Counted from the whole stretch's first letter, positions 7,138 through 59,378 are shown. The stretch: 63,808 bases of DNA, filler included, from Stramenopiles sp. TOSAG23-2 (GCA_900128395.1; 7 parts of 7 records of this genome joined end to end with filler, not necessarily neighbours in it); one strand, 5' to 3'. Notes: generated from the letters alone by a model not told the origin. Program-made: numbers and translations.

Positions 7138-9805
7138 ATGAAATTACCAACATACAACATATTATTTTTTATGGTCACGATATGCGTAGGCACGGTGGGT
7201 GCGCCAGTGCCTGGCCCACCACAGTCGGCAAGAGTTCGTATTATCAACGAAAGTACTCTGGAAGTGACGGTGAAACCGCCGGTGGACGACGGGGGGGGGA
7301 TTACAAACTATTACGTACGTACTAAATACGGGTGCAGTGCTGCTACTGGGACTGGAAGCATTGCGCATGGTACTATTTTCTGCAACATGGACATTGCCGG
7401 GGGCAGATGGTTACTTTATCTAATCAATGGAAATGACGCACAGCACAAACCGACACTAAGGTTAGGCAGTAATTCTAGCGGTTTTAGCTATTGGTACGCT
7501 GCCAACGATGCAGAAACTGTTCCAAAATCTACGGGCGCGTATAAATTAAGCGAAAACCTCTTCAATGACTACAATTTCACGGAAGTGCTAGCCTACATTG
7601 CCAGTTCCAGCAATGCGGAGAAATGGGTCAAGATAAAGCGTTCCTCTGGAAATGGAATAGACAGAACAATGGCATTTGCGGTTAATTCGCAATCGCCTGA
7701 AGGAGATAGCTGGGTTTTTGACCGCGAAGATGGAACGTCGACGACACGAATGCAGGATACCCAATATGGGCTGGACACCCATGGACCGTTTTTCAAGGAC
7801 GATTTCTCTGCCGGTTATGGTTGGATGTGGAGCGATAATTCAGGGGTCAATGATTTGCGAAAAGGCACCATCCCCGGAAGTACTATTTCCGATATATCCG
7901 TCGTCTGGTGGTGGTACGGGAGAAGAGATGACGATAGGAATCATTTCCTTTCACCCACGTCGCCACTTTATGTAGGCAACAACTTTAAAGGTGTCCCTAC
8001 AACTGCAATTGTATCGGCCTGCAACGCCCACGGTTGCGGCCCAAGCATCAACATTTCGACAGCTTGCGATATCCCCTCCAGCGGCAGTGCCACCATTACC
8101 AGCGACTGCATTCTCTACAGCCAAATCATCGTCACCGGCGTGTTAAATGTCACTGGCGTACCAGATGCCAATGGCGTGTTGCCGAAAATTATCGGTGGCG
8201 GTTCGAATCGGCATTTTAGCGTTATTGGAATTTCCAGTCAACTTGTTTTGGCTCGCTTAAATTTAACGAAAGGTAATGTTTACGGCGAACCATGTGCTGT
8301 GACAAAACCGCCTTACAACTTTTACGGGTGCAGTGGAGGTTCAATATATACCGACCAGTATAGCAGAGTGTACATCGTTTCGTGCGTATTTGCTGATAAC
8401 ACAGCTTCATTTGGTGGGGGGAGTATATTTGTCAAAGGCGGTGCTCAATTAAGTATCCACAATTCTACTATTGTGAAGAGTGCTGCATTAACATCAAACG
8501 GTGGAGGTATCTATATAAGAGACGCAGCATCAGCGCTACTTATGGAAGGGGGCACATTGGCTCAGAACGAAGCAGGAGGAAATGGCGGGGGCATAGGCAT
8601 GGCAGAAGGCTCTAAATGCACTGTTGTGCACGTAAAATTTATGAACAATACTTCTGCCTATTCTGGAGGAGGTGTGCAACAAGATATGGGAGAGTTAAAG
8701 ATGAATAATTGCACGCTGGTCGGCAACCACGCACGTTCAGGTGGGGCAATTTATCTTGCAAGAGGTACACATTATATTCAAAATTCCATTGTACAGCGCA
8801 ACATTGCAGAAAACTTTGGTGGTGGCATTCATATCCGTCGAGATGGGTCCCTGGAGATAGTATCAAGCATCTTTGAAAAGAACATCGTACGAGAGAACTC
8901 AGATGGTGGAGGCGCATTGTTTGTTGATTATGCGAATACAAAACCGGGGAGTATTCGAATTGATGTTCGTGAAACTCGGTTTATTGAAAATATAGCATCC
9001 ACTGGAAGTGAAATTATGACTGTGTTTAGTGAAGGAAAACCAACTATAGTCAATTTGATTAACGTTGAATTTGTGACAAGTAGCGCAAGCTTTTATTATG
9101 TTCGTCTTTGCCCAATTAATGAAATTTGTGCTCCTCGAACCTGCGCTTCCAACCCCTGCACCGTCTTCCCCTTCACTGGAACATGCACCAACCGTACGGG
9201 AAATCAAGGGGTTTTGTGCGATTACGGCGAAGAAGCGATTTGTTACCCTGGTGATTTTAAAAAAAAGGTGGCAGAGACAGCATTGCCACCGCCCCCAGAC
9301 TACTGCCAGGCGTGCGCGGAGGGTCAATATACGACGGCACAGAACCTACCAATCTGCTCAACCTGTAACATACCGCCAGAAGGAAATGTGACGGTCTCTC
9401 AAGATTGTGTTCAGCGGACGCAGATTGTAGTGACGGGTGATTTGAATGTCACGGGTATCCCAGATGCCCAAGGAAAGTTGCCAGCCATTGTGGGAGGTGG
9501 TTCGAATCGGCATTTTCATGTCAAAGCTGGGGGTCATTTAGTGATTCGTAATCTGAATCTGACGGGTGGGGATGTTGAGTATGGCGGCTCAATTTTAATG
9601 GAATTCTCATCACTAGATATTGCATACAGCATTTTCTCAAATAATCGAGCTACCGTAACCGGTGGTGCAATTGAATTAAACCATTGCAAGAATGTTCTCA
9701 TTCACAATGTAACATTTGAAAGGAATGTAGCTGTACATGGGGGGGGGGCTCTTAGTATACAAAATAGTCGCGGCATTTTACAGCTCGATTCGTCTAAATT
9801 TTCTT
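7138..9805 (+). CDS. Large secreted/surface protein: split FN3 with fibrinogen-like insert, then PMP-like GGA(I) beta-helix repeats and Cys-rich linkers; 3' truncated at contig end
   Basis: Hydrophobic N-terminal signal; PGPP...VKPPVDDGGGITNY and VSACNAHGCGP FN3 motifs; many FxxN..GGAI/GGGI repeats; ORF runs into the N linker. Confidence 0.8.
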
Positions 9806-9905
9806 NNNNNNNNNNNNNNNNNNNNNNNNNNNNNNNNNNNNNNNNNNNNTTAATTAATTAANNNNNNNNNNNNNNNNNNNNNNNNNNNNNNNNNNNNNNN
9901 NNNNN
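9806..9905. other. Artificial contig linker N44-TTAATTAATTAA-N44
   Basis: Identical 100 bp block with a stop-in-all-frames core, present six times in the window. Confidence 0.98.
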
Positions 9906-18213: not shown

Positions 18214-19709
18214 TTAACTTTTTCCACCTTTTCGTTCTGGCATTCCATCTGGACGTTTTCCATAGGAAACTTCATCTTTACCAAATTTAGCAGCTAATAA
18301 AGCTGCAAAATCTTGTGCATCATCAACAATTTCCACAACATCATCATATGAGGTGGAGGACGGCGATAAAGCTTCATCTTCATCATCATGAACACGTGTA
18401 GCAGCAGCTGCAATTTGATCCTTCCTTGTTATGAAACGAGCAAAAGTTTCATCTTTATCCACTGCACCAGATACTTTACGTATTTTCTCTGAACGTAAAT
18501 TAATAGAACATCCAGGAAGCTCATCCCATTTTCCTAATAAATTAAAAGATACAGAAATTCGATAATTTGCTGCTTTTTCAAATGAGGAAGATTCTTTGCA
18601 TGGATCTACTGCATGTGGTAACCAAGAGGGAAAGACGATTAAATCGCCAACAGCTGGTCGCATCGAATGTTCTTGATGAAACGGAGGCATTGCTTCTTCT
18701 TGATGAAGTGGTTGGAATGGGCTAACACCACGTGGATCACAAAATTTAATCGAGCCGGATCCAGGTGGAAGATTTGCATAATATACACCACTTAAAACGC
18801 CATAATAGTGAATATGGTAAGGATGACCACTCCCTGATCCATGCACTGATGCCCATACGACTAATTGTTTTCCATATACAAATGATTTTGCTTGATTTGT
18901 ATCGACACCAAAAGAATCTTGTAAAAACCAAATGCAGCTGTCTCGAAATTTTTTTACTAATTCTTTCATTTCCTTTGACGATGAATATTCTTTTGACCAT
19001 AGCAATGTGTCGTCATCTTCAGAAAAAATAGGATCATCATCCTTATTTTCAGCTATTTCCAACTGTTCTGCACATATTGTATCAATTTGGTATTGGAAAA
19101 ATTCATTATTTTTTGCCATACGCGCGTCATATCCTGCTGCACTATACTGATTCACAATTCCACTATTTTCCATATTTTGAAATTTCTTACTTTGAAAAAG
19201 GTTCAATATCTTTTCTTTCACTTTCATATTTATCCGCTCATCTAATATACCACTGCTACCCATGCCACGACCTTTACCACGATGAGATTTCGTAGAAGTT
19301 AAAAGGTTTGCATGCCACAATGGAGACGGAAATAGAATTGAAAAACGTGCATTATTAGGCGATGATGACATATTTCGTTTCTGAATTGTTGTAAATGTTG
19401 TTGAAAATCGTCTTTTACCATTATCATTTATAGACCGTGGTGATGACGATACATGATTATTTGTTCCATTAGTCACAGTCGTAATGGAATCTTCCTCATC
19501 ACTACTATTAATAATAAAATTACTATCATCATCATCATCATTATTTCCCCATACTATACTTGAATCTTCCCCTTGTTGTGTCAAAATTCGTATATGCTCC
19601 TCTAATGTCGTCTTTGGTTTTGTATCAAGCTTTGCTAATATAGCTTCATCTTCAACTTGAATGACAGAAGAAATTTCTGGAAAATAATGTTTAAGCATTG
19701 TTTCTACAC
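18214..19709 (-). CDS. 5'-truncated fusion: NFU1/NifU C-terminal end, linker, then putative 2OG-Fe(II) oxygenase (TIGR02466/PF13759-like)
   Basis: Frame is open from the contig edge: (G)VETMLKHYFPEISSVIQVEDE matches the NFU1 C-terminus. Downstream: WASV...HPYHIH...LSGVYY...IKFCDPR...GDLIVFPSWLPHAVDP...RISVSFN. Confidence 0.8.
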
Positions 19710-19809
19710 NNNNNNNNNNNNNNNNNNNNNNNNNNNNNNNNNNNNNNNNNNNNTTAATTAATTAANNNNNNNNNNNNNNNNNNNNNNNNNNNNNNNNNNN
19801 NNNNNNNNN
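19710..19809. other. Artificial contig linker
   Basis: N44-TTAATTAATTAA-N44. Confidence 0.98.
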
Positions 19810-20155
19810 CAGACTATTATAGATAGTAGTATATACGATGTACACTATTTATACAGGAATTATTAACTTGTAATTTTCCTTAAAATGATCGCGATATTGT
19901 GTCGCGGTGGATGGCATCCACAATAAAAAATGTGCAAATCATCATGTTTTTTTGTTATACTACAAATATATACTGCAGTAGATATAATTGGCATTGACTA
20001 TAATTCAGATATGGCCATATACATAGTCTCGAAAACAACAAAACACAAAAACAAATAACATAAAAAAGAATAACTATAATATATATTAATATATATTGTT
20101 AGAATCAATAAACGAATTTTTTCCTTGGAAAAACAAATTAACAACACAACCAACC

Positions 20156-21271
20156 ATGTCACAACCAGATTACCCTTCGCGTTATAAACTTAGTAAAATG
20201 AAAAAATCTGAATTACAAGATTTATTGGCAGAAAAAGCAAGTGAAAATTTGCAAGGTAAAAAAGCTGATTTGATTGATCGTTTATTAGATATCTACAGTG
20301 ACGAGAAGTATTTAATTGATCAAGTTCAACAAGATTTGAAAGACGATGGTGAATTTGTGAACGATGATGAGGATGATGAATATCAACCACCACCACCACC
20401 AGAGGATGATGATGATGAAGAGTGGGAAGAAGCGGAAGTATTGGAGTTATCAGCACCAGTTGACGCTTTGTGTTCATGCGATCGATTAAAAATGGCATTT
20501 TCTGCTTTTATTTTGATTGTATTGGCATCGGCAGCACATTTTCAATGCACGACCGATTCTTGTAAGGCACCTCAATCTATTAATGATATTGATTGGCTAA
20601 AATATCGTATAGAAGGTTCCAACTTTAAAGGTTTTGAAGATATGGGTTTCAATGAATGGAAAGATATGTTAAAATTAAAAGACATATTGGTGATCGTAGT
20701 TGGACTTATTGCAATAGTTTATGCATTGAAATGTATTTTAGTGCATTACGTAGCAACTACTGCAGAGGAAAAACGTGTTGGAAGATCGTGGGAGGTATTA
20801 TGGCTTTTAATTTCTGGTGTAATTCATTTATGGTTTGAAGGTACATTTGTATTTTTCCGCCATCATGAATTTTATTTGAAAATGGATATTTACATGGTAG
20901 CAGATTGGCGTTATGGCAATCCAATGGAACCTGGTACAAGAGCTATGGAAGCAATTACTTCCGTGATGGAAGGTCCATTATGTTTATTGGTTGCATATGC
21001 TGCCGTAAAAAATAAAATTTGGAGACATCCAGCACAATTAATTGTGACAACTTGTCAAATATATGGTTTAATATGGTTCTCTTTGCACCCAATGTTTGAT
21101 AGTAGCATACAACATTTATCTACAAATCCATTTCTATTTTTCGCTGTTGCATTTGGATTAAACGGACCTTGGGGAATTTTCCCACCGATGTTATGGGTTC
21201 AATCATGGAGAAAAATTATGGAAAGTTTGGAAGAAACTGAAGATCCATTTGCACACATCAAAGATGATTAA
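20156..21271 (+). CDS. SAP-domain plus EBP/EXPERA (sterol delta8-delta7 isomerase-like) multipass membrane protein
   Basis: ATG at 20156; SAP-like LSKMKKSELQDLL...LQGKKADLIDRL; acidic tract; extra TM segments; EBP motifs IHLWFEG, DWRY, MEAITSVMEGP, QIYG, LNGPW. Confidence 0.85.
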   Translation: MSQPDYPSRYKLSKMKKSELQDLLAEKASENLQGKKADLIDRLLDIYSDEKYLIDQVQQDLKDDGEFVNDDEDDEYQPPPPPEDDDDEEWEEAEVLELSAPVDALCSCDRLKMAFSAFILIVLASAAHFQCTTDSCKAPQSINDIDWLKYRIEGSNFKGFEDMGFNEWKDMLKLKDILVIVVGLIAIVYALKCILVHYVATTAEEKRVGRSWEVLWLLISGVIHLWFEGTFVFFRHHEFYLKMDIYMVADWRYGNPMEPGTRAMEAITSVMEGPLCLLVAYAAVKNKIWRHPAQLIVTTCQIYGLIWFSLHPMFDSSIQHLSTNPFLFFAVAFGLNGPWGIFPPMLWVQSWRKIMESLEETEDPFAHIKDD

Positions 21272-21699
21272 AATAAAAAAAAAAGAATAAAGAGGAAACG
21301 GAGAATTCAAAAATACACACAGACAAAACAAAGTAAGAGGAGAGAGGAAAAAAATGCTAGGTGGTACAATAATACACCGCACACACTGTTAAAATATATT
21401 TTATATAAAATTTATAATGAGTATTTTTTATGCATATGCATATTTATAAATAATATCATATATATGCATATGATATATATAAAAATTTCTCTTATTTATA
21501 ATTTAAAGATTTTATTTACTCATAATATATAATGATATGAATATTTAAAATGCTTTTTTATATATATAAATAGGATACACCAACATGTTTCTTTTAGTTT
21601 GCGTATTTTTTGATTATTTAATCGTACATCACAGTGTTTTATTATTTTCTCCCTCGTCTCTCAGACGCGTATGAAACAAACCATATTTCGATATATCAT

Positions 21700-22029
21700 T
21701 TAACTAGAGTGTTTAATTTGACGTGACATTATTTGTTTGTGAACAGCTTGAATGTCGGATGCATCGATCTCACTTGAACCACGAGCTTTTGCTTTTTGAT
21801 ATGCTGCAACAAATACTTTTTCAAGAATACCTTCAAGCGCATCTTCCAATGTGCCAAGTGCATCAACTTGAAATGGAACATTTGATTTTTGTGCTGCTTT
21901 ACTAGCAATGTCTTGAATCATATTTGATAATTCAGTTGGCAAACTTGAATTTGGCCGAAACCTTTGCGGCGTTCGTTTTACCCTGGATGATTTCCTTTTG
22001 CTTGGCGTATTGTTTTTGCTTTTTGGCAT
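21700..22029 (-). CDS. Divergent histone H3-like histone-fold protein
   Basis: Basic tail; PQRFRP, MIQDIA, FQVDALGTLEDALEGILEKVF and IDASDIQAV align to H3 PHRYRP, LVREIA, FQSSAVMALQEA.EAYLVGLF and IMPKDIQLA. Confidence 0.75.
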   Translation of the reverse strand: MPKSKNNTPSKRKSSRVKRTPQRFRPNSSLPTELSNMIQDIASKAAQKSNVPFQVDALGTLEDALEGILEKVFVAAYQKAKARGSSEIDASDIQAVHKQIMSRQIKHSS

Positions 22030-22831
22030 TGCAACTATATATATATATATGTATGTATAATATGTAAACTAAAATTGATTGTATTTTAAATATATATTGT
22101 TTAATATGAATGATTATAATGTGCTATAGAATTATACGTGATTGTGTTACCCGATTGTGTGTATAATATTTTGTAACTTTCTTCTATTTGTATATAATAC
22201 AGAGTACGTACTACTGTGGAGTATAATTGTTTTCAATCGACTTTTTCTTTTTTTCTTTTACTTTTTTTTTTTATTTTTTTTTTTTTGGCGCTTTTTTTCA
22301 TCTATGTAGTATACTAAATTAGTACTTAAATTAAACGTCGTTTTGAAATCCACTTTTAACTTACTTGGTACAGTATAATCTAAATCTTTTTTCTCCTAAT
22401 TTACAAGGAATTTTTATGTTTTTTAATTTCCCTTAAAGTATAAATTATGTTCATTTGATGGGGGGGGTTCAAAATAGAACTTTATTTTAAAAATTATAAT
22501 AACACATGTCCTTAAATGATCGTCGCCTTCTCCACACCATTCGATAATAAAAAATAATAATACTATAATAATAATTAGAAGAAGAATATAATGGATTGCG
22601 ATTATTATTAATGGATTATTATTATGACTACTGAAGATTTGTATTCTTTTTATATATAGTGTATGAGGAGAGGTAGAGAGAAACGTAGACGACTAATACG
22701 AAAAACAACAAAATAGTATTTATTGTTGTAATTATTATCGAACACACATACACACACACATATATATACCAGTTACTGTTTTAAAACATTTACAGCTTTT
22801 ATATATAATATAATATAATATATATTTTGTT

Positions 22832-24769
22832 ATGGCTTCATGTACTTTGGATGATATTGAAAATTTAGCATTTACAGATGAAGACGAAATAAATGTACGT
22901 GCACCAAGACCTTCTGTAGTCATGCCAAAAGTAACTTTGATCAAAGGTAACAAACGGAATAAAAAGAAGACGAGGCAAAATATGAAAACAATTGGATCCT
23001 CTGAAGATGAAACAAAAATAAATACTGGAATGTACAACGATACGCAAGTTGGTGGATACGTACCTGGTACAGAAACCATTTGGATGAAAACATTTGGTTG
23101 TGCACATAATGTTAGTGACGGTGAATATATGCAAGGTATGTTAGCAAGTTATGGATATACATTCACAGAAACTCCATCTGAAGCAGATTTGTGGTTTTTA
23201 AATAGTTGCACGGTAAAAAATCCATCAGAGACAGCATTTATGAATTTAGTCAAAAAAGGAAAAGCTGGAAATCATAAATTAGTTGTTGCTGGATGTGTAC
23301 CACAGGGTGATCGAAAAATTAACGGTTTAGAAGATGTTAGTATTGTTGGTATTTCCCAAATCGATAGAGTGACAGAAATTGTGGAAGAAACGTTGAAAGG
23401 GAACGTTGTACGTTTGTTATCTAAGAAAACATTACCAAGCTTAGATTTACCTAAAATTCGTAAAAATCCATTTGTTGAAATTGTGCCATTATCTACAGGT
23501 TGTTTAGGTGCATGTACATATTGTAAAACACGACATGCACGTGGTAAATTAGGTAGCTATACCTTGGATGCCTTGTCCCGTAGAATTAAACAAGTTGTAA
23601 AAGAACAAGTTGCGGAAATATGGCTAAGTAGTGAAGATACAGGTGCATGGGGATTGGATATAGGGATGAAAATACCAGATTTATTGGAACACGTCGTTAC
23701 ATTATTGCCAAAGGATCGAAGTGTAATGTTACGTATTGGTATGACAAATCCACCATATATATTAGAACATTTGGAAGCAATTGCTAAAACATTAAATCAT
23801 CCATCTGTTTTTTCGTTTTTACATGTACCATTACAAAGTGGTAGTGATAATGTATTAAAAAACATGAATCGTGAATACGATAGTGCAGATTTCATTAAAG
23901 TTGCTGATTATTTATTAAAACACGTTCCAGGGATGACACTCGCAACTGATATTATATGTGGCTTCCCGTATGAAACTGATGAAGATCATCAAGATACATT
24001 ACGAATTTTAAATAAATACAAATTACCAGTCGTCAATATTTCACAATTTTATCCAAGACCTGGAACGGAGGCAGCAAAAATGAAACAATTAAGAAGTCAA
24101 ACGAAAAAGGCGAGAAGTAGGGAAGTTACAAAAACTTTTTTATCGTATAAGCCATATGAGAAAACGTTGCCAATCGGAACAAAAACGTTAGCATGGGTTT
24201 CAAATGAAGTATCAAAAGATGGTAGAAATAGTGTTGCACACACAAAAAGTTACTCAAAGGTCTTAATACCACGTGATGATCGTTTAAAAGGTGCAAAAAT
24301 ACAAATTGAAATCACTTCAGTTGATAAATTTCATGTAGTAGCTGATGTTTTAGAAGTTTTTTTCAAACATCCGCATGCGAAGGATATTGTGGAAGAAGTA
24401 GAAACAAAAGGTGAAACAAAGAAAGATGTTAATAATAGTAGTAGTAGTAAAAAAACTGAAGAAATATTTGTTGATGGTGATTTTTGCGGTGATGATGGTG
24501 GTTGTTGTGGAAGTAATGAAGGTGAATGCTGTGGTGGTGGTTCATGTGATGATGATGATCATAATACAAAAAATAGTAAAAACGATGGCAACAATGCTAC
24601 TGGTCAACAAGGAAAGAACAGTGGAATGAAATCGATCATAAATGATACTACGACATCATTTTGGGATTCTAATATGTATCGGTACTTGATTCGACCAGTC
24701 ATTTTTGCTATTGTGTTTTTACAGATTTTTATTTATATAAATAATAATTACAAACAGCATCATTTATAA
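22832..24769 (+). CDS. CDKAL1: tRNA t6A methylthiotransferase (radical SAM, tail-anchored)
   Basis: TFGCAHNVSDGEYM, NSCTVKNPS, AGCVPQ, GCLGACTYCKT radical-SAM motif, TDIICGFP, TRAM region, C-terminal TM. Confidence 0.96.
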   Translation: MASCTLDDIENLAFTDEDEINVRAPRPSVVMPKVTLIKGNKRNKKKTRQNMKTIGSSEDETKINTGMYNDTQVGGYVPGTETIWMKTFGCAHNVSDGEYMQGMLASYGYTFTETPSEADLWFLNSCTVKNPSETAFMNLVKKGKAGNHKLVVAGCVPQGDRKINGLEDVSIVGISQIDRVTEIVEETLKGNVVRLLSKKTLPSLDLPKIRKNPFVEIVPLSTGCLGACTYCKTRHARGKLGSYTLDALSRRIKQVVKEQVAEIWLSSEDTGAWGLDIGMKIPDLLEHVVTLLPKDRSVMLRIGMTNPPYILEHLEAIAKTLNHPSVFSFLHVPLQSGSDNVLKNMNREYDSADFIKVADYLLKHVPGMTLATDIICGFPYETDEDHQDTLRILNKYKLPVVNISQFYPRPGTEAAKMKQLRSQTKKARSREVTKTFLSYKPYEKTLPIGTKTLAWVSNEVSKDGRNSVAHTKSYSKVLIPRDDRLKGAKIQIEITSVDKFHVVADVLEVFFKHPHAKDIVEEVETKGETKKDVNNSSSSKKTEEIFVDGDFCGDDGGCCGSNEGECCGGGSCDDDDHNTKNSKNDGNNATGQQGKNSGMKSIINDTTTSFWDSNMYRYLIRPVIFAIVFLQIFIYINNNYKQHHL

Positions 24770-25451
24770 GAGATATAAATTTTTTTAAGATTTTGATGGT
24801 GATGGAGAGCTTTGTGTGTAATGATTGTTGTGTTTGGAGTGTACTGGATATGATGTCTTTTGATACTGTATTCTCGTGTAACAATAATCATACACGTGTG
24901 TCTTAAAATTAAAGATATTATATTGCATTAAATATATATAACACTTTTAGAGACCTTTTTTTTTAAATATGATATAAATATGCATGTGATGTATCATATA
25001 TCATAAAATTATAAAAGAGTGCGTTTTTAAAATATTAATATATATATGTTTTGATGTTTTATTAAAAATATATGATATATGATATGCATATTATCATACT
25101 TATTATTTTAATATCTTTTATTGGTCATAAATAATATTTGTGTGTTTTAAATATATATAAAAAAAAAGAAGTTCTTGCTTGTGTGTGTTATTATATTATA
25201 ATTATATATATCATATATATAAATTCGTACCTTTCTATTAAAATGTACGCGCGCGCGTTTGTACTTTATATATATAATAAATTAAAAGAGTAAAAAAGAA
25301 AGTACGAACTCTTGATATTTTTATTTTTTTTTAAATGATATTCGTAAAACATATCTCCAGCCCTGGGCCAGTAAACAGAGCAAAATGTACAAATTTTTTA
25401 TTATTCATGTTTTTAATATTAATATATTAATATATTTGTAAATATGTAACC

Positions 25452-25733
25452 TTACTGTGTACGCATTGGGGGAGATACTAAAATAATCGCGTCACCACGA
25501 ACAAATAACATTTCTACCTCACGCTTTTGAGTACTAACAAGCTCTTCATCTGTATCTTCATCAATTTCAACTGTTGTGACTTTCTCTTCAACATCTTCTA
25601 ATACCATATTTAAATGTTCGTCAAAAGCGTGTAATTTACCTTGCAGTTCTCTTCCACCACGACATTTAATTAATATTCTCTCATCAATACTTAAACGAAT
25701 AAGATCTAACGGTTTCTTAATATTATCTGACAT
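25452..25733 (-). CDS. LSM3: U6 snRNA-associated Sm-like protein LSm3
   Basis: [40 protein letters not shown]...[15 protein letters not shown]. Confidence 0.96.
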
Positions 25734-26428
25734 TGTTCCCTATTGAAAATTACTACTATTATATATATATATATATATATATCTATCTGTCTGTCTATCT
25801 CCAATACAAATTTACTACAGTACTTATTATTAAATATTTATTATGTATGGTGCTATCCTGGCTATGTAATAAATATTATATATAATGTACTTTTATATAA
25901 TTAATATAAGAAAATGAATGGCACCACCAATGGTATGATATAATTTAAACACAACATGATGTGCATGTGATGGTGAGTATTGAAATGCCTCCTTACTGTT
26001 ATCTATACTGTACTAGCTCATATTCTAATAGGACAGTACAGTAATAGTAAAACACCTTAATCTATTGCTATACGTACTGGACACAACAGACGGTTCGGTA
26101 GGACTTTGCTTCGATGCCGCGGACACCCGATTAAGGAAATGGTCTAATGGCGGTAGTTTGTAAATTTCTTGTTCAAAAAAATTGTTCCCGCACAGGTTTA
26201 AATGGTCACAACTTTAAATGGTTTCACAGTCGCCATTTTGTGTTTAATTTACGCTACACAATATTTTGAACGTAAATCGATATATTGGTCTTTACTGCTG
26301 CTTTTTTTAAAAAACAGCGTCAGCGGATTATATATTACTAATATATATAAAAATACAACAGTATAGATGTTACGAAATCTGATTTGAGATGTTAATTTCC
26401 GGGAGTAAAAGAAATTTATATAATACAT

Positions 26429-26545
26429 ATATAGCGAACATGTACTACAGCATAAACCTGCAAATACACGTAAACTTCCTACATCAATGGAATCGACATC
26501 ATCTTGTCCCGCAACAGTTTCTTTTTCAACAATAACAGTAGCCAT
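26429..26545 (-). pseudogene. Truncated paralog of the Cys-rich gene at 27381-28024
   Basis: MATVIVEKETVAGQDDVDSIDVGSLRVFAGLCCSTCSLY matches the neighbour's first ~39 aa; similarity then ends and I found no downstream exon. Confidence 0.6.
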
Positions 26546-27380
26546 TTTTTTTTAAATATATATTTTTTCTTTTTTCTTTCGTTTATCTTTTGATAATAAT
26601 ATAATTAATAATTTAATAATACCTTTGTTCTTTCAATATATCTACTCTCTCTTTTACGTTTAGTACCATTAAATACATTTTATTTATTAAAATATATACA
26701 GTTATAGTTTTCATATGTTTTAGATGTTAGCGTATAAATACCATTAGGATGGATCAGCTAGCTACCACACATTAATTCAAATATACAGTATATCGTAGTT
26801 TTACAATAGTATTCTCCTTGTGTGCACATTTTCCTTTTTTTTGTCGCCACCAAATTTTGAGATTTGTACCGCAAAGATGAAAATTTCGAAGCTGGGAAGA
26901 GTTGATAATAGAGGCCGAAATATGGCATCTTCTTGGATTAAAACCGGGTCATATGGTGTATTCCAGTATTATCATAGTGTAAAATATAGTAAAAAACGGT
27001 ACCTGGTAAAGTAAAAAAAATTATTTTCGTTAAATACGACTCGTATATTTTTTTCATTTTACGAGTATTAAAAATAATACTTCGTATATTTTTTTTTTTA
27101 TACATTATACCAGGTATAATTTATTATATTAATTTGAAACATTTTATTAAATGCATAGTGCCATATGTTGCATATCATGTATTATCATATCGTACATATA
27201 TATATATATATATTATATATTATATCAATTTGTACTAAATCATATGATATGATATCATATTATGATATGACATTATATGATATATATATAATATAGTATA
27301 TATGTTCTAACATGTAAAATTGTAAGTTCACATTACAATCATACGCATCAACTTGTGAACAGTATAGCCATATTTTGACT

Positions 27381-28024
27381 TTAACGCTCTGCTTCAATCT
27401 CCATTGGTGCACCATATCCAACATTTGCTTGTGGGATAGCATCCAATTCTTGCTCATGGGAATAAGTTTCTGGGTCGATTTGTGCAAGCGTTTTACAACA
27501 GCCCGGTTTGCATTTAAATTTGTAGCAACAGTTAAGGCCCCATACATTAAATATGCATGGAACTTTCTCATTGCAAGGAAATGCTATTGTACGAAAACAA
27601 AAAAATAGATCAGTTTAATGGTTAGCTGAGAAAACGAATATAACAATATTTATACATATACATATTATATGTATTAAAAAGTATTAGATAACTTACCACA
27701 ACGTGTATCGAGGCAGAAGAATTGGCATTGCGTACCAATACAAGTGGTTGGTGGTAAGCATACGCAGTCAGTATCTGCCAAAATACACCAAACTTTCCTT
27801 TCATCTTGACCTTCTTTGTTTACTGCAGGCTTGCACAATCTACAGTCACCTTCGATGCATAAAACAGTCCCTGAAGTCTGCATACCACAACAGTTTGGCG
27901 TTTGCGTGTATAGTGATGTAATAGCGCAACACATTCCAGATATCACTCTTAGTGCTCCAACATCAACATCATCTTTATCTGCTTGTCCACCAACAACGTT
28001 CTTTTCAACTATTACGGTAGCCAT
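27381..28024 (-). CDS. Two-exon Cys-rich protein, 176 aa: join(28024..27697, 27583..27381)
   Basis: Intron 27696..27584 (113 nt) has a GTAAGT donor, GCTAAC branch point and TAG acceptor. Splicing gives ...CLDTRCAFPCNEKVPCIFNVWGLNCCYKFKCKPGCCKTLAQIDPE...EIEAER*. Confidence 0.88.
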
Positions 28025-28566
28025 GTTTTTTCTTTGTTTTCTTTGTCTCTCTTGTTTTTAAAAAGGATGTATTCCTGTAATTTATTGTTCTTTTTGCATA
28101 TAGTTTCAGCATAAGCTTATATTATGTTTAAACATGTATTATAGAATAGTTGGTGCATATATTATACTTTATCAGAGCTGACTATTATCTTTAATAACCT
28201 AACTGTAATTATTAGTATACCAAGATTTGTACCGTAAAACCACACACGCAATACACAATCACACAATCTAAATCTTGTTACTTATTTTAACTTATATAAA
28301 CGAGGATGGATTGGTAGCATCAGATAGCATTGGCGTTACATTGTTACCAATCAATTTAATCCAAATTTTCGTAGATATTTTTATTGTACCACATTTAATA
28401 TGACCACACCACAGAGGAGAAGGAGTGACAGAGTTATTCTAGTTTTACTATTCACATTTTTGAGGGAAATACAGTACCTAGCCCGGCTAGGTATACAAAA
28501 ATGGAAAAGTCTAGATTTACGTCCCCGTAATAATACTATTACTATAAGGTGGCTAGCTCTATAGCT

Positions 28567-28628
28567 ATCCAGGATCCAGGATCCAGGATCCAGGACAGGC
28601 TATCCCAGCTTACCAGCTTACCAGCTTA
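28567..28628 (+). repeat. Adjacent micro-tandem arrays (ATCCAGG)x4 and (CCAGCTTA)x3
   Basis: Read directly at 28567-28594 and 28605-28628. Confidence 0.92.
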
Positions 28629-28796
28629 CTGTATAATAATAAGTATATACTACTAATACCACTTGTGGTATAAAAGCTGTTGGCGTCCAACAAGTAGTCA
28701 CTATTTATATTAAGGATATTTATATGAGAAATCATTTCAATCATACTTAATGGCTCTACAGTGTTCTAATTACTAGCTAGCCCTGGCTAGAGCTAG

Positions 28797-29176
28797 CCCA
28801 GTCAATTTTTTTTAGAGAACGATACGTTAGCATGGAATAGCATTGAGGTCCAAAATAAAGTATCGTTCTGTATCGTTCTCTCTAATTTTCCAATTTTTTG
28901 GCTACATGAAAATAATCTATAACAATATCCGTAAAATATTAAATATAATGAATTATTTTAATAGTTATAAAAACTTATAAATACTATCATGATTTCCATA
29001 TTTATATTTTCAGATTCCCAAAATTTAGAACAATTTTATCGAACGATAAATCTCATTTTTTCATCTTTTATCTAGCATGGACACAGCATGAGAGAACGAT
29101 ACAGAACGATACTTTATTTTGGACCTCAATGCTATTCCCATGCTAACGTATCGTTCTCTAAAAAAAATTGACTGGG
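28797..29176. mobile_element. MITE-like non-autonomous DNA transposon, ~380 bp, ~85 bp TIRs, flanked by CTAG
   Basis: CCCAGTCAATTTTTTTTAGAGAACGATACGTTAGCATGGAATAGCATTGAGGTCCAAAATAAAGTATCGTTCTGTATCGTTCTCT is matched by its reverse complement at 29091-29176 with one indel. AT-rich non-coding interior; CTAG on both sides. Confidence 0.85.
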
Positions 29177-29513
29177 CTAGCCCAGCTAGCTATGTAGTAT
29201 TAATAATGTTAATGTCATGGTATTATTAATGACGTAAAAATGGGTATAATAAAAGTGTATAGCAACAGTATATAGCATAGAACTTTATAATAATATATGC
29301 ACGTCATTTTTTTTCGACCCAAATATGGCCATACCGGATGTGCACATCATTGGGTGGTGGTGGTGTGCCAGTGGTGTGCAAATTACACCTCTTATTACTT
29401 TTTTCCGGATTCCGGATTATTATAAAAAATATGATGAATTTGACATAGAAACGATAATATAATATATATATACACTCTATTGTTGTATCATGTATTTTTA
29501 CATAATATTGTTG

Positions 29514-29608
29514 TTAAGATGCTTTTTGCATTTCACGCAATTCACGTCGTAAACTTACATTATTATTTCCTATGATTGTAAGCATTTGTCCATCATTTCG
29601 TTTTTCTT
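29514..29608 (-). CDS. 3' end of a gene cut by the contig edge
   Basis: Minus frame reads EKRNDGQMLTIIGNNNVSLRRELREMQKAS* from the contig end with host-like codons. Confidence 0.55.
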
Positions 29609-29708
29609 NNNNNNNNNNNNNNNNNNNNNNNNNNNNNNNNNNNNNNNNNNNNTTAATTAATTAANNNNNNNNNNNNNNNNNNNNNNNNNNNNNNNNNNNN
29701 NNNNNNNN
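29609..29708. other. Artificial contig linker
   Basis: N44-TTAATTAATTAA-N44. Confidence 0.98.
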
Positions 29709-39505: not shown

Positions 39506-39605
39506 NNNNNNNNNNNNNNNNNNNNNNNNNNNNNNNNNNNNNNNNNNNNTTAATTAATTAANNNNNNNNNNNNNNNNNNNNNNNNNNNNNNNNNNNNNNN
39601 NNNNN
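39506..39605. other. Artificial contig linker
   Basis: N44-TTAATTAATTAA-N44. Confidence 0.98.
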
Positions 39606-39733
39606 ATACATATCTATATCAGTTTAGGGAAGTGTACCAGTGAAGAAGGAGATTTGATTAGTAGGGAGTTCAATAGGAGAAATTAAATAGAAACGTCATT
39701 TATTTCATATTATATATATATATTTTTTTGAAG

Positions 39734-42700
39734 ATGAAGATGAATATTGTAATAGTTTTGTTATGTTTATTGTTCAGTAATTATGCATTAGCAGCAGAAA
39801 TTAAAGTTGAAATGTATGAGTCATTAGGTAACTCAACAAATGCAACAACTGGAGCAGTACCGATGCTAAACAGTACCGTTGGTGGTAATTCAACAACTGT
39901 AACTGCATCAAACGCAACATTAAATAATAATAATACAAATATAGGAATAGCAAATAATGCAACTAAAAATACTACAACAGCAGTAGTAGTAAATACAACA
40001 ACAGTTGCACCAGTAGTTGCAAATAAAACCGTAGTAGTAGTAGCACCAGCATCTAATGCGACTAATACAACGAAAAATAAAACAACTGCTACCAATAGTA
40101 CAGTTCCAAAAAAGGCAAATGTTACGAAAGTAACACCAAAAGCGGAACAACCAAAAGTAGAAACACCAGTAGTTAAAAAGAAGAAGAAAAATAGTACTTC
40201 TACAAATACTACTAAAGTACGTGGTTTACCAACGAAAATGAAAGTAGAATGTGAACCTGGTACGGAAAATGCGTTTCTACCAGGTGATAATGGACAAGTA
40301 GAGAATGTACAATCAGTCGTTGGATATGCTGTATGTAAAGAATTTTGTAAAGATCCAGAAAGTGAAGGCTTATACAATGGTACATGCGTCGTTGATGGTG
40401 AACTACATCGGTTCCCAACGAAAGATGGTGGTGCTTTGAAACAAAACAAGGGACCAAATACTGTCAAAAGCCCCGTGCCAACGACTGGCACCAAAACCGA
40501 CATGGACTTTTTGCCAGATACGCCACCAACGGAGCAAGTAAAATCGTTCTGGACCGAGGAAGGTGCAAAAAGTTTAATAATGGAAGATGGTAAACCACGA
40601 TTACCACATGCACGTAAAGGACATACAACTAGTATCATAGGCAACGATTTGTTTGTCTTTGGTGGTTGTAACGCGCCAGCTGGCAAATGTTACAACCAGC
40701 TTTTAAAGTTAGATTTGACGAAGATGGAATGGTCATACCCTAAAGTACAAGGTGTTGCTCCACCAGCATTAAGTGGCCATACGGCTACTGTGGTCAGGTT
40801 ACCACCAAAAGATCAATGGGCAGCGGAAGATGCAGTAGCATCTGTTCCTTTCCTATTTATTTTAGGTGGTAAAGCAACTACAGAATCGGCGGACGGGAAA
40901 GAAATGGTTTATTCCGATGCATTATACATTTTAAGTGTAAAGCAAGATGCCTCTGGCCTCCCTGTATTAAACTGGGATAAAATTTCACTTGATCAAATGA
41001 TGGGTCCAGCAAAAGGTAAATGGACAGCAAGAGAAGGCCATACGGCAACAAGGGTTGGTAGTTATTTGTACGTGTTTGGTGGACAAAGTGACGATGGAAT
41101 TGTGAAAAACAGAGAAATATTGCGTATGAAAATCTTGCCAGATCGCGACAGATTAAAGCTTGATGGCAAAACTTTCTTTCAATGGACAGCGCTGGATGCA
41201 CTGAAAGGTGCTGCGCCATTGCCACGATATGGGCATAGTGCTGGTTTATTAAGCGGGCGTTATTACACCATTTTCGGTGGTTATGTTGCTACTAAATCTG
41301 GTGCTTCAAATGATGTAGTTGCAATTGATTTAGGTGCAACTGATGATGTTGGCAACAATTGCGCCGATGCAGCAACTGCACCAGGACAAGAATGTGAATG
41401 GGTAAAACCAATGCCAATGGGAACGGAACCTTTGCCACGACAATATGCTGCTTCTACCGTAATTGGTAAAAAAGGCAGCAGAGGCAATAACAAAATGGTT
41501 ATTTTCGGTGGTTGTGGCGTACCTTCCAAAGTTTGTTACAACGATGCGTACGTATTGCGCGTGACGAAACAAGGCTGGTATTGGCAACAAACCGATGTAG
41601 ACGATGATCAAATCCCAGAAAGAAGAGAAGCTGGTACGTTAACGTACATTCCATCAACCGTGCATTTCACATCATTAGCAAATGCATTTGGACCACATGT
41701 GAAAATGGCAAAAGATGGTGCAGCAAAGAATATGTTTGGCTCAAAAAATGCAAGTAGAGTTGCTAAAGGACCTGTAACTACCGGTTCGAAACACTCACTT
41801 CTTGAAGTGGAAAGTGAAGATTTAAATGCAACTATCATAGGACGTAAACATGGTAAACGTGTTATTTTGTTCGGTGGTACTCTTCGCGAATCGCGTTCGT
41901 TCAATGATTTATTTACATTTGAAATGGGCCAATACAGACCTGAAGCAATCCCAGAAATCAAATCTGATTTACCATTGACACCAGCTGAAAAAGGATGTGC
42001 TAGTAATTGTAGTGGTCATGGACGATGCGACACTGGACGTTGTATATGCAAAAACGAAACGTACGGCCCATGGACTGGAATGAACTGCAGTATTGCACCA
42101 ATTAAACCTGTACCAAAAACCGCGCCAGCTGGCTTTGTATTGCCAAAAGATTCGATTATTGTCTCATTGACCGGTAAAGGTTGTAAAGCAAATTGTAGCG
42201 GTCATGGTGAATGTAGAAATGGTACCTGTGTATGTCATACATCTAAATTTGGCCATTGGCATGGTCCAATATGCAATAAATTACGATGCCCTAATGATTG
42301 TACCGGACATGGTGTCTGCCATAACGGTACATGTGCATGTGATAAAACGTACAGTGGTATTTCTTGCGAATTGCGCGTATGCCCAGGTAACAAAACTATG
42401 GGCGTTTGCAGTGGCCACGGTAAATGTAATATCATCGATGAACACAAGACGAAATGTGCCTGCATGAAAGGATGGGGTGGTAAATCTTGTTTTGAGAAGC
42501 GAAATATCTCAGAATGCGGTGCTTTAAATTGTTCATATCCAAATGGTCGATGCATTAACGATACGAAAATCAATGCTTTCAGATGCAAATGCAAAAAAGA
42601 ATGGGCTGGCGTCGAGTGTGGTGAAGTTGCGAAATTTACTCATGTGATCAACGTTAACGGCAAAAACATGACCGTCCCATCATATGTTAACGATGCGAAG

Positions 42701-49392: not shown

Positions 49393-49492
49393 NNNNNNNN
49401 NNNNNNNNNNNNNNNNNNNNNNNNNNNNNNNNNNNNTTAATTAATTAANNNNNNNNNNNNNNNNNNNNNNNNNNNNNNNNNNNNNNNNNNNN
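49393..49492. other. Artificial contig linker
   Basis: N44-TTAATTAATTAA-N44. Confidence 0.98.
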
Positions 49493-59278: not shown

Positions 59279-59378
59279 NNNNNNNNNNNNNNNNNNNNNN
59301 NNNNNNNNNNNNNNNNNNNNNNTTAATTAATTAANNNNNNNNNNNNNNNNNNNNNNNNNNNNNNNNNNNNNNNNNNNN
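59279..59378. other. Artificial contig linker
   Basis: N44-TTAATTAATTAA-N44. Confidence 0.98.

What the first reader, a model, noticed from the sequence alone, without database searches (positions are those of the whole stretch)
20156..21271. SAP-domain plus sterol isomerase fusion: a possible convergent lamin B receptor analogue
Seen: N-terminal SAP-like motif, acidic/Pro linker, additional TM segments around a Cys-containing loop, then a full EBP domain with H, E, E, T, N and W at the motif positions matching human EBP catalytic residues. Established: SAP/LEM-type helix-extension-helix domains bind DNA or chromatin; metazoan LBR couples a chromatin-binding head to a sterol C14 reductase at the inner nuclear membrane; ordinary EBP has no such head. 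Inference: an independently evolved chromatin tether built on a different sterol enzyme in a non-animal lineage.
Basis: partly seen in the sequence, partly recalled or inferred. Interest (0 to 1): 0.8.

Follow-up and report, generated by a model that had tools for sequence, protein, structure and literature searches.

The report
SAP-headed sterol isomerase membrane protein
A small group of uncultured marine protists carries a sterol-isomerase-type membrane protein with a DNA-binding-type SAP domain fused to its front, an architecture that recalls the animal lamin B receptor but whose place in the cell is still untested.

Summary
Window 20156-21271 (+) is an intronless 371-aa gene. It encodes a SAP domain (aa 12-45), an acidic/proline linker, a CxC pair, one extra membrane helix (TM0, aa 111-129), a lumenal loop with CxxxxC, and a complete five-helix EBP core. 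His, Glu, Glu, Thr, Asn and Trp sit at the positions of human EBP His76, Glu80, Glu122, the Thr, Asn193 and Trp196.

The window protein scores 23.7 bits against the SAP cut-off of 23.9. Two orthologues pass it, and a profile of the heads finds solved SAP domains.

The fusion is conserved in four lineages down to 57% identity, shows purifying selection, and is spanned by gene-sized contigs from RNA libraries of three studies.

Among the 150 best EBP relatives only this clade carries SAP. No paper found describes it.

Human EBP has a lumenal N-terminus, so TM0 should put the head in the cytosol or nucleoplasm.

Inner-nuclear-membrane residence, DNA binding and isomerase activity remain inference. 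A conserved K-x-D/E tail and non-DNA SAP domains (MANF) are counter-leads.

Verdict: a real, new domain architecture. The LBR analogy is plausible but unproven.

The parts
20156..21271 (+). Whole coding sequence, 371 aa plus stop, no intron
   Evidence: RNA-library contigs cover 20086-21391 without joints. Orthologues are collinear single frames.
20189..20290 (+). SAP domain (aa 12-45); model helices 17-29 and 33-46 around a loop with Gly34
   Evidence: Pfam SAP 23.7 bits here, 27.9 and 26.9 bits in orthologues. The head profile hits solved SAP domains 2rno, 1zrj, 2do1 and 2kvu at E 4e-4 to 8e-3. The AF2 model gives the helices.
20294..20461 (+). Helix 50-63, then a disordered acidic/proline linker with the conserved motif DDDEEWEEAEVLEL
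   Evidence: Net charge -19 over aa 61-112. pLDDT below 50 for aa 63-108. The motif is kept in the 57% orthologue (alignment).
20471..20479 (+). C106-x-C108, next to the membrane on the N-terminal side of TM0
   Evidence: DALCxC is present in all 4 full-length lineages.
20486..20542 (+). Extra transmembrane helix TM0 (aa 111-129), absent from ordinary EBP
   Evidence: Best 17-residue Kyte-Doolittle hydropathy is 1.8-2.3 in 4 lineages. Model helix 110-127 with pLDDT about 65. Unfused relatives have no counterpart.
20543..20674 (+). Loop between TM0 and TM1 (aa 130-173) with C131-x4-C136 and the conserved DIDWLKYR and FKGFEDMGF; predicted lumenal
   Evidence: Conservation. The orientation is inferred from the human EBP topology.
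20675..21238 (+). EBP/EXPERA five-helix core (aa 174-361) with H224, E228, E265, T268, N336 and W339
   Evidence: Pfam EBP E 1.8e-16. phmmer to human EBP 6oht E 1.1e-06. Foldseek to 8w0r E 1.7e-05, TM-score 0.73 by target length. pLDDT mostly above 90.
21239..21271 (+). C-terminal tail ending H-I-K-D-D, then the stop; no di-lysine motif
   Evidence: The tails of the 5 full-length fused proteins end K-[DE]-[DE]. Di-lysine tails: 0 of 6 fused against 29 of 45 in the plant/fungal/animal clade.

Best explanation
The gene encodes a six-helix membrane protein of the ER/nuclear-envelope system.

Its C-terminal two thirds are an EBP-type sterol-binding core. Because all catalytic residues are kept, this core most likely still isomerises delta-8 sterols to delta-7 sterols.

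A lineage-specific N-terminal module (aa 1 to about 161) was added in front of it. The module holds a SAP domain, an acidic/proline linker and one extra membrane helix, TM0.

Ordinary EBP has its N-terminus in the lumen. TM0 should therefore turn the chain once more and expose the SAP head and linker (about 110 aa) on the cytosolic/nucleoplasmic face, the same side as the C-terminus.

A head that small can pass the pore membrane. The most likely mechanism is then diffusion through the ER followed by retention at the inner nuclear membrane through SAP binding to DNA or chromatin. That would make a chromatin-to-membrane tether built on a sterol enzyme, working like the lamin B receptor or the Heh/MAN1 proteins.

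Shown here: the architecture, its conservation, purifying selection, presence in RNA libraries, the fold of the core and the SAP profile match. Inferred: topology, enzyme activity, DNA binding and nuclear-envelope residence.
For: Domains:
- EBP E 1.8e-16. SAP scores 23.7 bits here and 27.9 and 26.9 bits in two orthologues, against a cut-off of 23.9.
- Of the 12 PDB hits of the head profile at E up to 10, the best five are chains whose matched stretch I recognise as a SAP domain: rice SIZ1 2rno (4e-4), E1B-AP5 1zrj, Hcc-1 2do1, MKL1 2kvu and DEK. Tho1 also appears. The SAP identity of these chains is partly recalled from their names.

Core:
- The model has pLDDT above 90 over most of aa 170-360. 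Its best Foldseek matches are human EBP 8w0r and 6oht, at E 1.7e-05 and 2.8e-05 and TM-scores 0.73 and 0.71 by target length. The sigma-2 receptor scores only E about 1.
- Five of five residues that PMC6549186 shows to matter (His76, Glu80, Glu122, Asn193, Trp196) are kept, as is the Thr.

Topology:
- PMC6549186 assigns the N-terminus of five-helix human EBP to the lumen (passages read).
- TM0 is hydrophobic in 4 of 4 lineages.
- There is no N-terminal signal peptide, and about 100 residues of acidic head precede TM0.

The fusion is real:
- Four lineages share it in single unbroken frames.
- RNA-library contigs from three studies cover head and core in one piece: 20157-21391, 20170-21358 and 20125-21278, with no joints.
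- dN/dS between the window and L002 is 0.065 for the head, 0.14 for TM0 plus loop and 0.034 for the core.

The fusion is special:
- The fused proteins form one clade with SH-aLRT 100.
- SAP is found in 4 of 150 representatives, all from this clade.
- The ER-retrieval di-lysine tail is present in 0 of 6 fused proteins, 6 of 20 unfused stramenopile-type and 29 of 45 plant/fungal/animal-clade proteins.

Precedent: N-terminal helix-extension-helix DNA-binding heads followed by membrane helices define a superfamily of inner-nuclear-membrane proteins (PMC4810098, passages).
Against: - No call bears on localisation, DNA binding or enzyme activity.
- The window protein itself is 0.2 bits under the Pfam SAP cut-off, and the truncated P0005 scores 14.4 bits.
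- SAP domains are not always nucleic-acid binders. The MANF SAP domain binds BiP in the ER lumen (bioRxiv 10.64898/2026.04.03.716285, passages).
- The SAP part is nearly neutral (9 K+R against 8 D+E). It is followed by a linker of net charge -19, which would not favour DNA contact.
- All 5 full-length fused tails end K-[DE]-[DE]. This resembles the C-terminal KXD/E motif through which Arabidopsis EMP12 binds COPI and stays in the cis-Golgi (PMC9274083, passage). That points to cycling in the early secretory pathway rather than to the nucleus.
- TM0 has only moderate model confidence (pLDDT about 65). Raw K+R counts on the two sides do not decide the orientation (my count from the sequence).
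- The core belongs to a stramenopile-type EBP clade separate from the plant/fungal/animal clade. I know of no enzyme assay for that clade.
- Whether the organism has a second, unfused EBP could not be tested because no genome is held.
- dS is near saturation, so the dN/dS values are rough.
Confidence: 0.45

Rival explanations
1. An ordinary ER or early-secretory sterol isomerase whose cytosolic SAP-plus-acidic head does something other than tether chromatin. It could recruit a partner protein or RNA, regulate the enzyme, or sort the protein, for example through COPI binding at the K-x-D/E tail.
For: - The core is a complete EBP with catalytic residues.
- The conserved C-terminal K-[DE]-[DE] resembles the COPI-binding KXD/E motif of EMP12.
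- SAP domains can be protein-binding modules, as with MANF and BiP.
- The conserved acidic-Trp motif DDDEEWEEAEVLEL looks like a short peptide ligand (alignment).
- The linker charge of -19 is unfavourable for DNA.
Against: - Most solved domains that the head profile finds belong to nuclear DNA- or RNA-binding proteins.
- A head, linker and membrane-helix order is the hallmark of inner-nuclear-membrane HeH proteins.
- The di-lysine ER-retrieval tail common in relatives has been lost.
Confidence: 0.3
2. A sterol-responsive, membrane-tethered regulator. The EBP core senses sterol. The SAP head with its acidic, activation-domain-like linker is then released by proteolysis near TM0, or is switched in its chromatin contacts. 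This would work like SREBP or other membrane-bound transcription factors.
For: - The order is a DNA-binding-type domain, then an acidic/proline region with bulky hydrophobic residues, then a membrane helix, then a sterol-binding fold.
- Conserved cysteines flank TM0 on both sides.
Against: - No protease site or partner was identified.
- By my recollection, SAP domains bind DNA with little sequence specificity.
- The strict conservation of all catalytic residues and a core dN/dS of 0.034 fit an enzyme at least as well as a sensor.
Confidence: 0.08
3. The head is lumenal. TM0 does not span the membrane, or the N-terminus is translocated, and the SAP-like domain acts in the ER lumen as the MANF SAP domain does on BiP.
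For: - A lumenal SAP domain has a precedent.
- TM0 model confidence is moderate.
- The four cysteines could form lumenal disulfides.
Against: - There is no signal peptide.
- About 100 strongly acidic residues would have to cross the membrane after synthesis.
- TM0 is hydrophobic and conserved in 4 of 4 lineages.
- The homologous EBP core has a lumenal N-terminus, so one extra spanning helix gives a cytosolic head.
Confidence: 0.07
4. An assembly or gene-model artefact: two separate genes, or a chimeric contig, read as one frame.
For: The window is a chain of separate contigs joined by spacers, so artefacts must be considered.
Against: - The gene lies wholly inside one piece, 19810-29608.
- The same single frame occurs on three independent metagenome contigs and in several protein clusters.
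- RNA-library contigs from three studies bridge head and core.
- The head is under purifying selection.
Confidence: 0.02

Closest known systems
EBP / HYD1 sterol delta-8,delta-7 isomerase (EXPERA superfamily, PF05241; human structures 6oht, 8w0r)
   Same: The five-helix fold: Foldseek E 1.7e-05, TM-score 0.73 by target length, 25-26% identity. His, Glu, Glu, Asn and Trp of the catalytic cavity are kept.
   Different: - It has an added N-terminal module of about 160 aa: SAP, acidic linker, TM0 and a Cys loop.
- It has no di-lysine tail.
- The core sits in a stramenopile-type clade apart from the plant/fungal/animal clade and lacks the WKEY motif of helix H1.
Lamin B receptor (LBR) of animals
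   Same: The concept only: a nucleoplasmic chromatin-binding head fused to a multi-pass enzyme of post-squalene sterol synthesis. The LBR architecture is recalled, not tested here.
   Different: - The head type differs: SAP rather than Tudor plus RS.
- The enzyme differs: an EBP isomerase fold rather than an ERG4/ERG24 C14 reductase. No such Pfam hit was found.
- Its localisation is unknown.
HeH/LEM inner-nuclear-membrane proteins (Heh1/Src1, Heh2, MAN1, LEM2)
   Same: An N-terminal helix-extension-helix DNA-binding-type head, an unstructured linker, then membrane helices with the head facing the nucleoplasm (PMC4810098).
   Different: - Pfam calls the head SAP. No HeH or LEM family appears even at E up to 10.
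- There is no MSC/winged-helix C-terminal domain.
- The membrane part is an enzyme fold.
Unfused stramenopile-type EBP homologues (P0006-P0008; Nannochloropsis/Microchloropsis, Thraustotheca and Rhodelphis entries)
   Same: They are 41-49% identical over the core and lie in the same starred 26-row clade of the tree.
   Different: They are 208-307 aa with no SAP, no TM0 and no Cys loop. Six of 20 keep a di-lysine tail.

Membership tests
EBP / EXPERA (PF05241) | Profile match above the curated cut-off | tested here: met
   60.9 bits against a cut-off of 25.7, E 1.8e-16.
EBP / EXPERA (PF05241) | Five-helix EBP fold | tested here: met
   AF2 core pLDDT above 90. Foldseek to human EBP: E 1.7e-05, TM-score 0.73 by target length, 194 aligned columns of a 213-residue chain.
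EBP / EXPERA (PF05241) | Catalytic and ligand residues His76, Glu80, Glu122, Asn193 and Trp196 (human numbering) | tested here: met
   H224, E228, E265, N336 and W339 align to them. Their roles are taken from PMC6549186.
EBP / EXPERA (PF05241) | Delta-8 to delta-7 sterol isomerase activity | not testable with these tools
   This needs yeast erg2 rescue or a zymostenol assay.
SAP domain (PF02037) | Profile match above the curated cut-off | tested here: inconclusive
   Window protein: 23.7 bits against 23.9, E 3.6e-05. Orthologues: 27.9 and 26.9 bits pass, truncated P0005 at 14.4 bits fails. The head profile hits solved SAP domains at E 4e-4 to 8e-3.
SAP domain (PF02037) | Two helices around an extended loop with a conserved Gly | tested here: met
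   Full-length model: helices 17-29 and 33-46, with pLDDT 79-83 for aa 11-30. Gly34 is invariant in the 4 heads. A structure search with the head alone returned nothing.
SAP domain (PF02037) | DNA or chromatin binding | not testable with these tools
   This needs EMSA or nucleosome binding with the recombinant head.
Lamin B receptor | ERG4/ERG24-type sterol C14 reductase membrane domain | tested here: not met
   No such Pfam family at E up to 10. The membrane part is EBP.
Lamin B receptor | Tudor/RS nucleoplasmic head | tested here: not met
   Only SAP is found in the head.
Lamin B receptor | Inner-nuclear-membrane residence with chromatin or lamin binding | not testable with these tools
   This needs localisation and binding experiments.
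HeH/LEM inner-nuclear-membrane proteins | HeH or LEM profile match in the head | tested here: not met
   Neither family is listed at E up to 10 for the window protein, or at E up to 1 for the orthologues.

The most novel reading that the evidence does not exclude
The protein may be more than a passive tether. It could be a sterol-to-chromatin signalling device. In this reading, occupancy of the EBP cavity by sterol intermediates controls cleavage at TM0, or controls the availability of the SAP head with its acidic, activation-domain-like linker. Membrane sterol status would then be read out directly on DNA. That would be an SREBP-like logic, evolved independently and built on an enzyme fold.
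Probability: 0.08. Interest if true: 0.9.

Novelty: new variant of a known kind. Interest (0 to 1): 0.62.

Why it matters
LBR is, as far as I recall, the standard example of a chromatin-binding head joined to a sterol-synthesis enzyme at the inner nuclear membrane. Why those two functions are coupled there is still debated.

A second, independently assembled fusion would argue that the coupling is selected rather than an accident of animal history. This one has a different head, a different sterol enzyme and a different eukaryotic supergroup. It would also give a simple comparative system: 371 aa, no intron, and separable head, TM0 and core.

If the head turns out not to bind chromatin, the protein still shows how one added membrane helix can re-orient a new N-terminal domain on an old enzyme. 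It also flags a stramenopile-type EBP clade. For that group an early survey found no delta-8,delta-7 isomerase in two stramenopile genomes (PMC2817430, passages).

Tried and rejected
- Head-only structure. The AF2 model of aa 1-66 from 4 sequences had pLDDT 72 and two long helices. A Foldseek search of it against the PDB gave 0 matches at E up to 10. This says nothing either way for so small a domain.
- Own genome. None is held. I therefore could not ask whether the organism has a second EBP, lamins or Heh/MAN1 proteins.
- Earlier notes of this scan: none for this place.
- ESM Atlas. It returned only EBP clusters at scores 0.76-0.77, below the level it calls meaningful, and it holds no structure for this protein.
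- Search with aa 1-172 alone. It found 3 proteins among 398 candidates, all the protein's own orthologues, so the source of the head stays unknown. Only lengths of 204-650 aa were searched.
- dN/dS against the 57% orthologue L001. dS was saturated in every segment but the tail, so these values are unusable.
- Positive-inside counting by hand. It gave about 11 K+R on each side when the long loops are included, so it does not decide the orientation.
- Literature. No paper holds both 'EXPERA' and 'SAP domain' or both 'lamin B receptor' and 'EXPERA'. The listings showed no SAP-EBP protein. Two reviews (PMC11591786; PMC12331695) added nothing on stramenopile EBP or the KXD/E motif.
- Supplements. 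The supplementary trees of PMC2817430 were not available to me and may show stramenopile EBP homologues.
- Complex prediction was not used. EBP dimerisation would pass by likeness to solved structures, and it bears on no claim here.

Full report
**What is there.** Window 20156-21271 (+) is a single open frame of 371 codons plus a stop. An in-frame TAA lies 69 bases upstream of the ATG. All orthologues begin at the homologous Met.

Pfam finds EBP/EXPERA (PF05241, E 1.8e-16, aa 246-350). It also finds SAP (PF02037, E 3.6e-05, 23.7 bits against a curated cut-off of 23.9, aa 12-45).

The window protein is thus a hair under the SAP cut-off, but several results back the assignment:
- Two orthologues pass the cut-off with 27.9 and 26.9 bits. 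A truncated third scores 14.4.
- A profile of four heads retrieves solved SAP domains as its best PDB hits: rice SIZ1 2rno at 4e-4, then 1zrj, 2do1, 2kvu, DEK and Tho1, among 12 hits at E up to 10.
- No HeH or LEM family appears.

**Anatomy.** An AlphaFold2 model from a 70-sequence alignment (mean pLDDT 75) gives these features:
- helices 17-29 and 33-46, which form the SAP helix-loop-helix (pLDDT about 80);
- a further helix at 50-63;
- a disordered stretch at 63-108;
- a helix at 110-127 (pLDDT about 65);
- from about aa 170 onward, a membrane bundle with pLDDT above 90.

The disordered stretch has net charge -19 and contains PPPPP.

Foldseek places the bundle on human EBP: 8w0r at E 1.7e-05 with TM-score 0.73 by target length and 194 columns, and 6oht at 2.8e-05. 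The sigma-2 receptor is far behind at E about 1.

Unfused relatives align from about aa 162. The helix at 174-199 is therefore TM1 of the EBP fold, and only the helix at 111-129 (TM0) is extra.

C106-x-C108 precedes TM0 and C131-x4-C136 follows it, in all four lineages.

From the phmmer alignment to 6oht, whose chain numbering is offset by 8, six residues line up with the human enzyme. H224, E228, E265, N336 and W339 match His76, Glu80, Glu122, Asn193 and Trp196. T268 matches the Thr three residues after Glu122. The roles of those five residues come from passages of PMC6549186.

**The fusion is real.** Full-length fused proteins exist in four lineages:
- the window species, also on locus L003;
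- L002 (372 aa);
- P0157 (364 aa, 83% identical);
- P0004/L001 (369 aa, 57-58% identical).

Each is a single unbroken frame.

Contigs from four RNA libraries of three studies lie on the gene. Three of them bridge head and core: 20157-21391, 20170-21358 and 20125-21278. The fourth covers 20086-20661. No joints were found. Contigs cannot prove transcript ends, and DNA can contaminate RNA libraries. Still, gene-sized contigs from poly-A libraries are what one unspliced mRNA would give.

Between the window and L002, dN/dS is 0.065 for the head, 0.14 for TM0 plus loop and 0.034 for the core. dS is close to saturation, so the values are rough. Comparisons with L001 are saturated.

**How special it is.** A full HMMER scan of 1.84 billion representatives gave 292 hits at E up to 0.001. 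Of the best 150, 143 carry EBP and 4 carry SAP. All four belong to this clade: P0003 and three fragments.

In a quick maximum-likelihood tree of 71 rows, the six fused rows form one clade (SH-aLRT 100). This clade sits inside a starred 26-row clade. The named members of that clade are Nannochloropsis/Microchloropsis, the oomycete Thraustotheca, and Rhodelphis.

The other 45 rows include plant isomerases, fungal homologues and a mussel EBP-like protein. They mostly carry the WKEY motif, which the 26-row clade lacks.

The region aa 1-172 finds only its own orthologues.

The gene occurs in marine metagenomes, and the neighbouring CDKAL1 gene has oomycetes as its best named hits. A marine stramenopile is therefore likely but not shown.

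**How it probably works.** PMC6549186 assigns the N-terminus of five-helix human EBP to the lumen. One more spanning helix in front would put everything before it on the cytosolic/nucleoplasmic side, together with the C-terminus.

Three features fit that:
- there is no signal peptide;
- about 100 acidic residues precede TM0;
- TM0 is hydrophobic in all lineages.

A SAP-type head, a floppy linker and then membrane helices is the layout of the HeH family of DNA-binding inner-nuclear-membrane proteins (PMC4810098). The di-lysine ER-retrieval tail is missing from all 6 fused rows, while 29 of 45 plant/fungal/animal-clade rows and 6 of 20 unfused stramenopile-type rows have it.

I therefore favour, at about 0.45, an active EBP-type enzyme that is held at the inner nuclear membrane by its SAP head. 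That would be an LBR-like tether in function, though not a member of the LBR family.

**Against it.**
- Nothing here tests localisation, DNA binding or catalysis.
- SAP domains can bind proteins, as MANF binds BiP in the ER lumen.
- The SAP part is nearly neutral and the linker is strongly acidic.
- The tails of all 5 full-length fused proteins end K-[DE]-[DE]. This looks like the KXD/E motif by which EMP12 binds COPI and stays in the cis-Golgi (PMC9274083).
- The stramenopile-type EBP clade has, to my knowledge, no assayed member.
- An early survey found no ERG2 or EBP in Thalassiosira pseudonana or Aureococcus (PMC2817430). That leaves open whether this clade is the missing isomerase.

**Rivals.** In order of weight they are:
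- a cytosol-facing regulatory or sorting head on an ER/Golgi enzyme (0.3);
- a sterol-gated releasable regulator (0.08);
- a lumenal head (0.07);
- an artefact (0.02).

**Novelty.** Searches for 'EXPERA' with 'SAP domain', and for 'lamin B receptor' with 'EXPERA', returned no paper. The listings held none on such a protein. One source's automatic annotation calls an orthologue 'cholestenol delta-isomerase' only.

The parts are known and the combination is new, so I rate it a new variant of a known kind. It is of real interest to nuclear-envelope and sterol biologists if the localisation holds.

Noticed in passing
window 9806-9905, 19710-19809, 29609-29708, 39506-39605, 49393-49492, 59279-59378: There are six 100-base spacers, each N44 + TTAATTAATTAA + N44. 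The pieces between them shrink slowly in length: 9804, 9799, 9797, 9787, 9786. The window is therefore a chain of separate contigs sorted by length, and genes on either side of a spacer are not neighbours. The 2OG-oxygenase gene at 18214-19698 (-) is thus not a neighbour of the SAP-EBP gene.
   Followed up: yes
window 21700-22029 (-): A 109-aa protein lies next to the SAP-EBP gene. It is also adjacent on L003. Its N-terminus is basic, and it has weak sub-threshold matches to the histone fold: PF00125 at E 0.005 and CBFD_NFYB_HMF at E 0.01. It may be a small histone-fold protein.
   Followed up: partly
window 22832-24769 (+): A CDKAL1-type tRNA methylthiotransferase (Radical_SAM plus UPF0004) lies on the same contig piece. 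Its best named relatives are oomycetes at 54-65% identity, which hints at a stramenopile origin of the window.
   Followed up: partly
window 7138-9861 (+): A 907-aa frame with Chlamydia-PMP-type repeats runs into the first spacer, so its end is cut by the contig end.
   Followed up: no
window 39728-47086 (+): A very long frame of 2452 aa lies in a stretch with raised G+C, 41-47% against about 30% elsewhere. It was not examined.
   Followed up: no
window 20420-20461 (aa 89-102): An acidic-Trp motif, DDDEEWEEAEVLEL, is kept almost unchanged even in the 57% orthologue, where it reads DDDEWEEAQILEF. It looks like a short peptide ligand, perhaps histone-binding, activation-domain-like or FFAT-like. 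Those likenesses are recalled, not tested.
   Followed up: no
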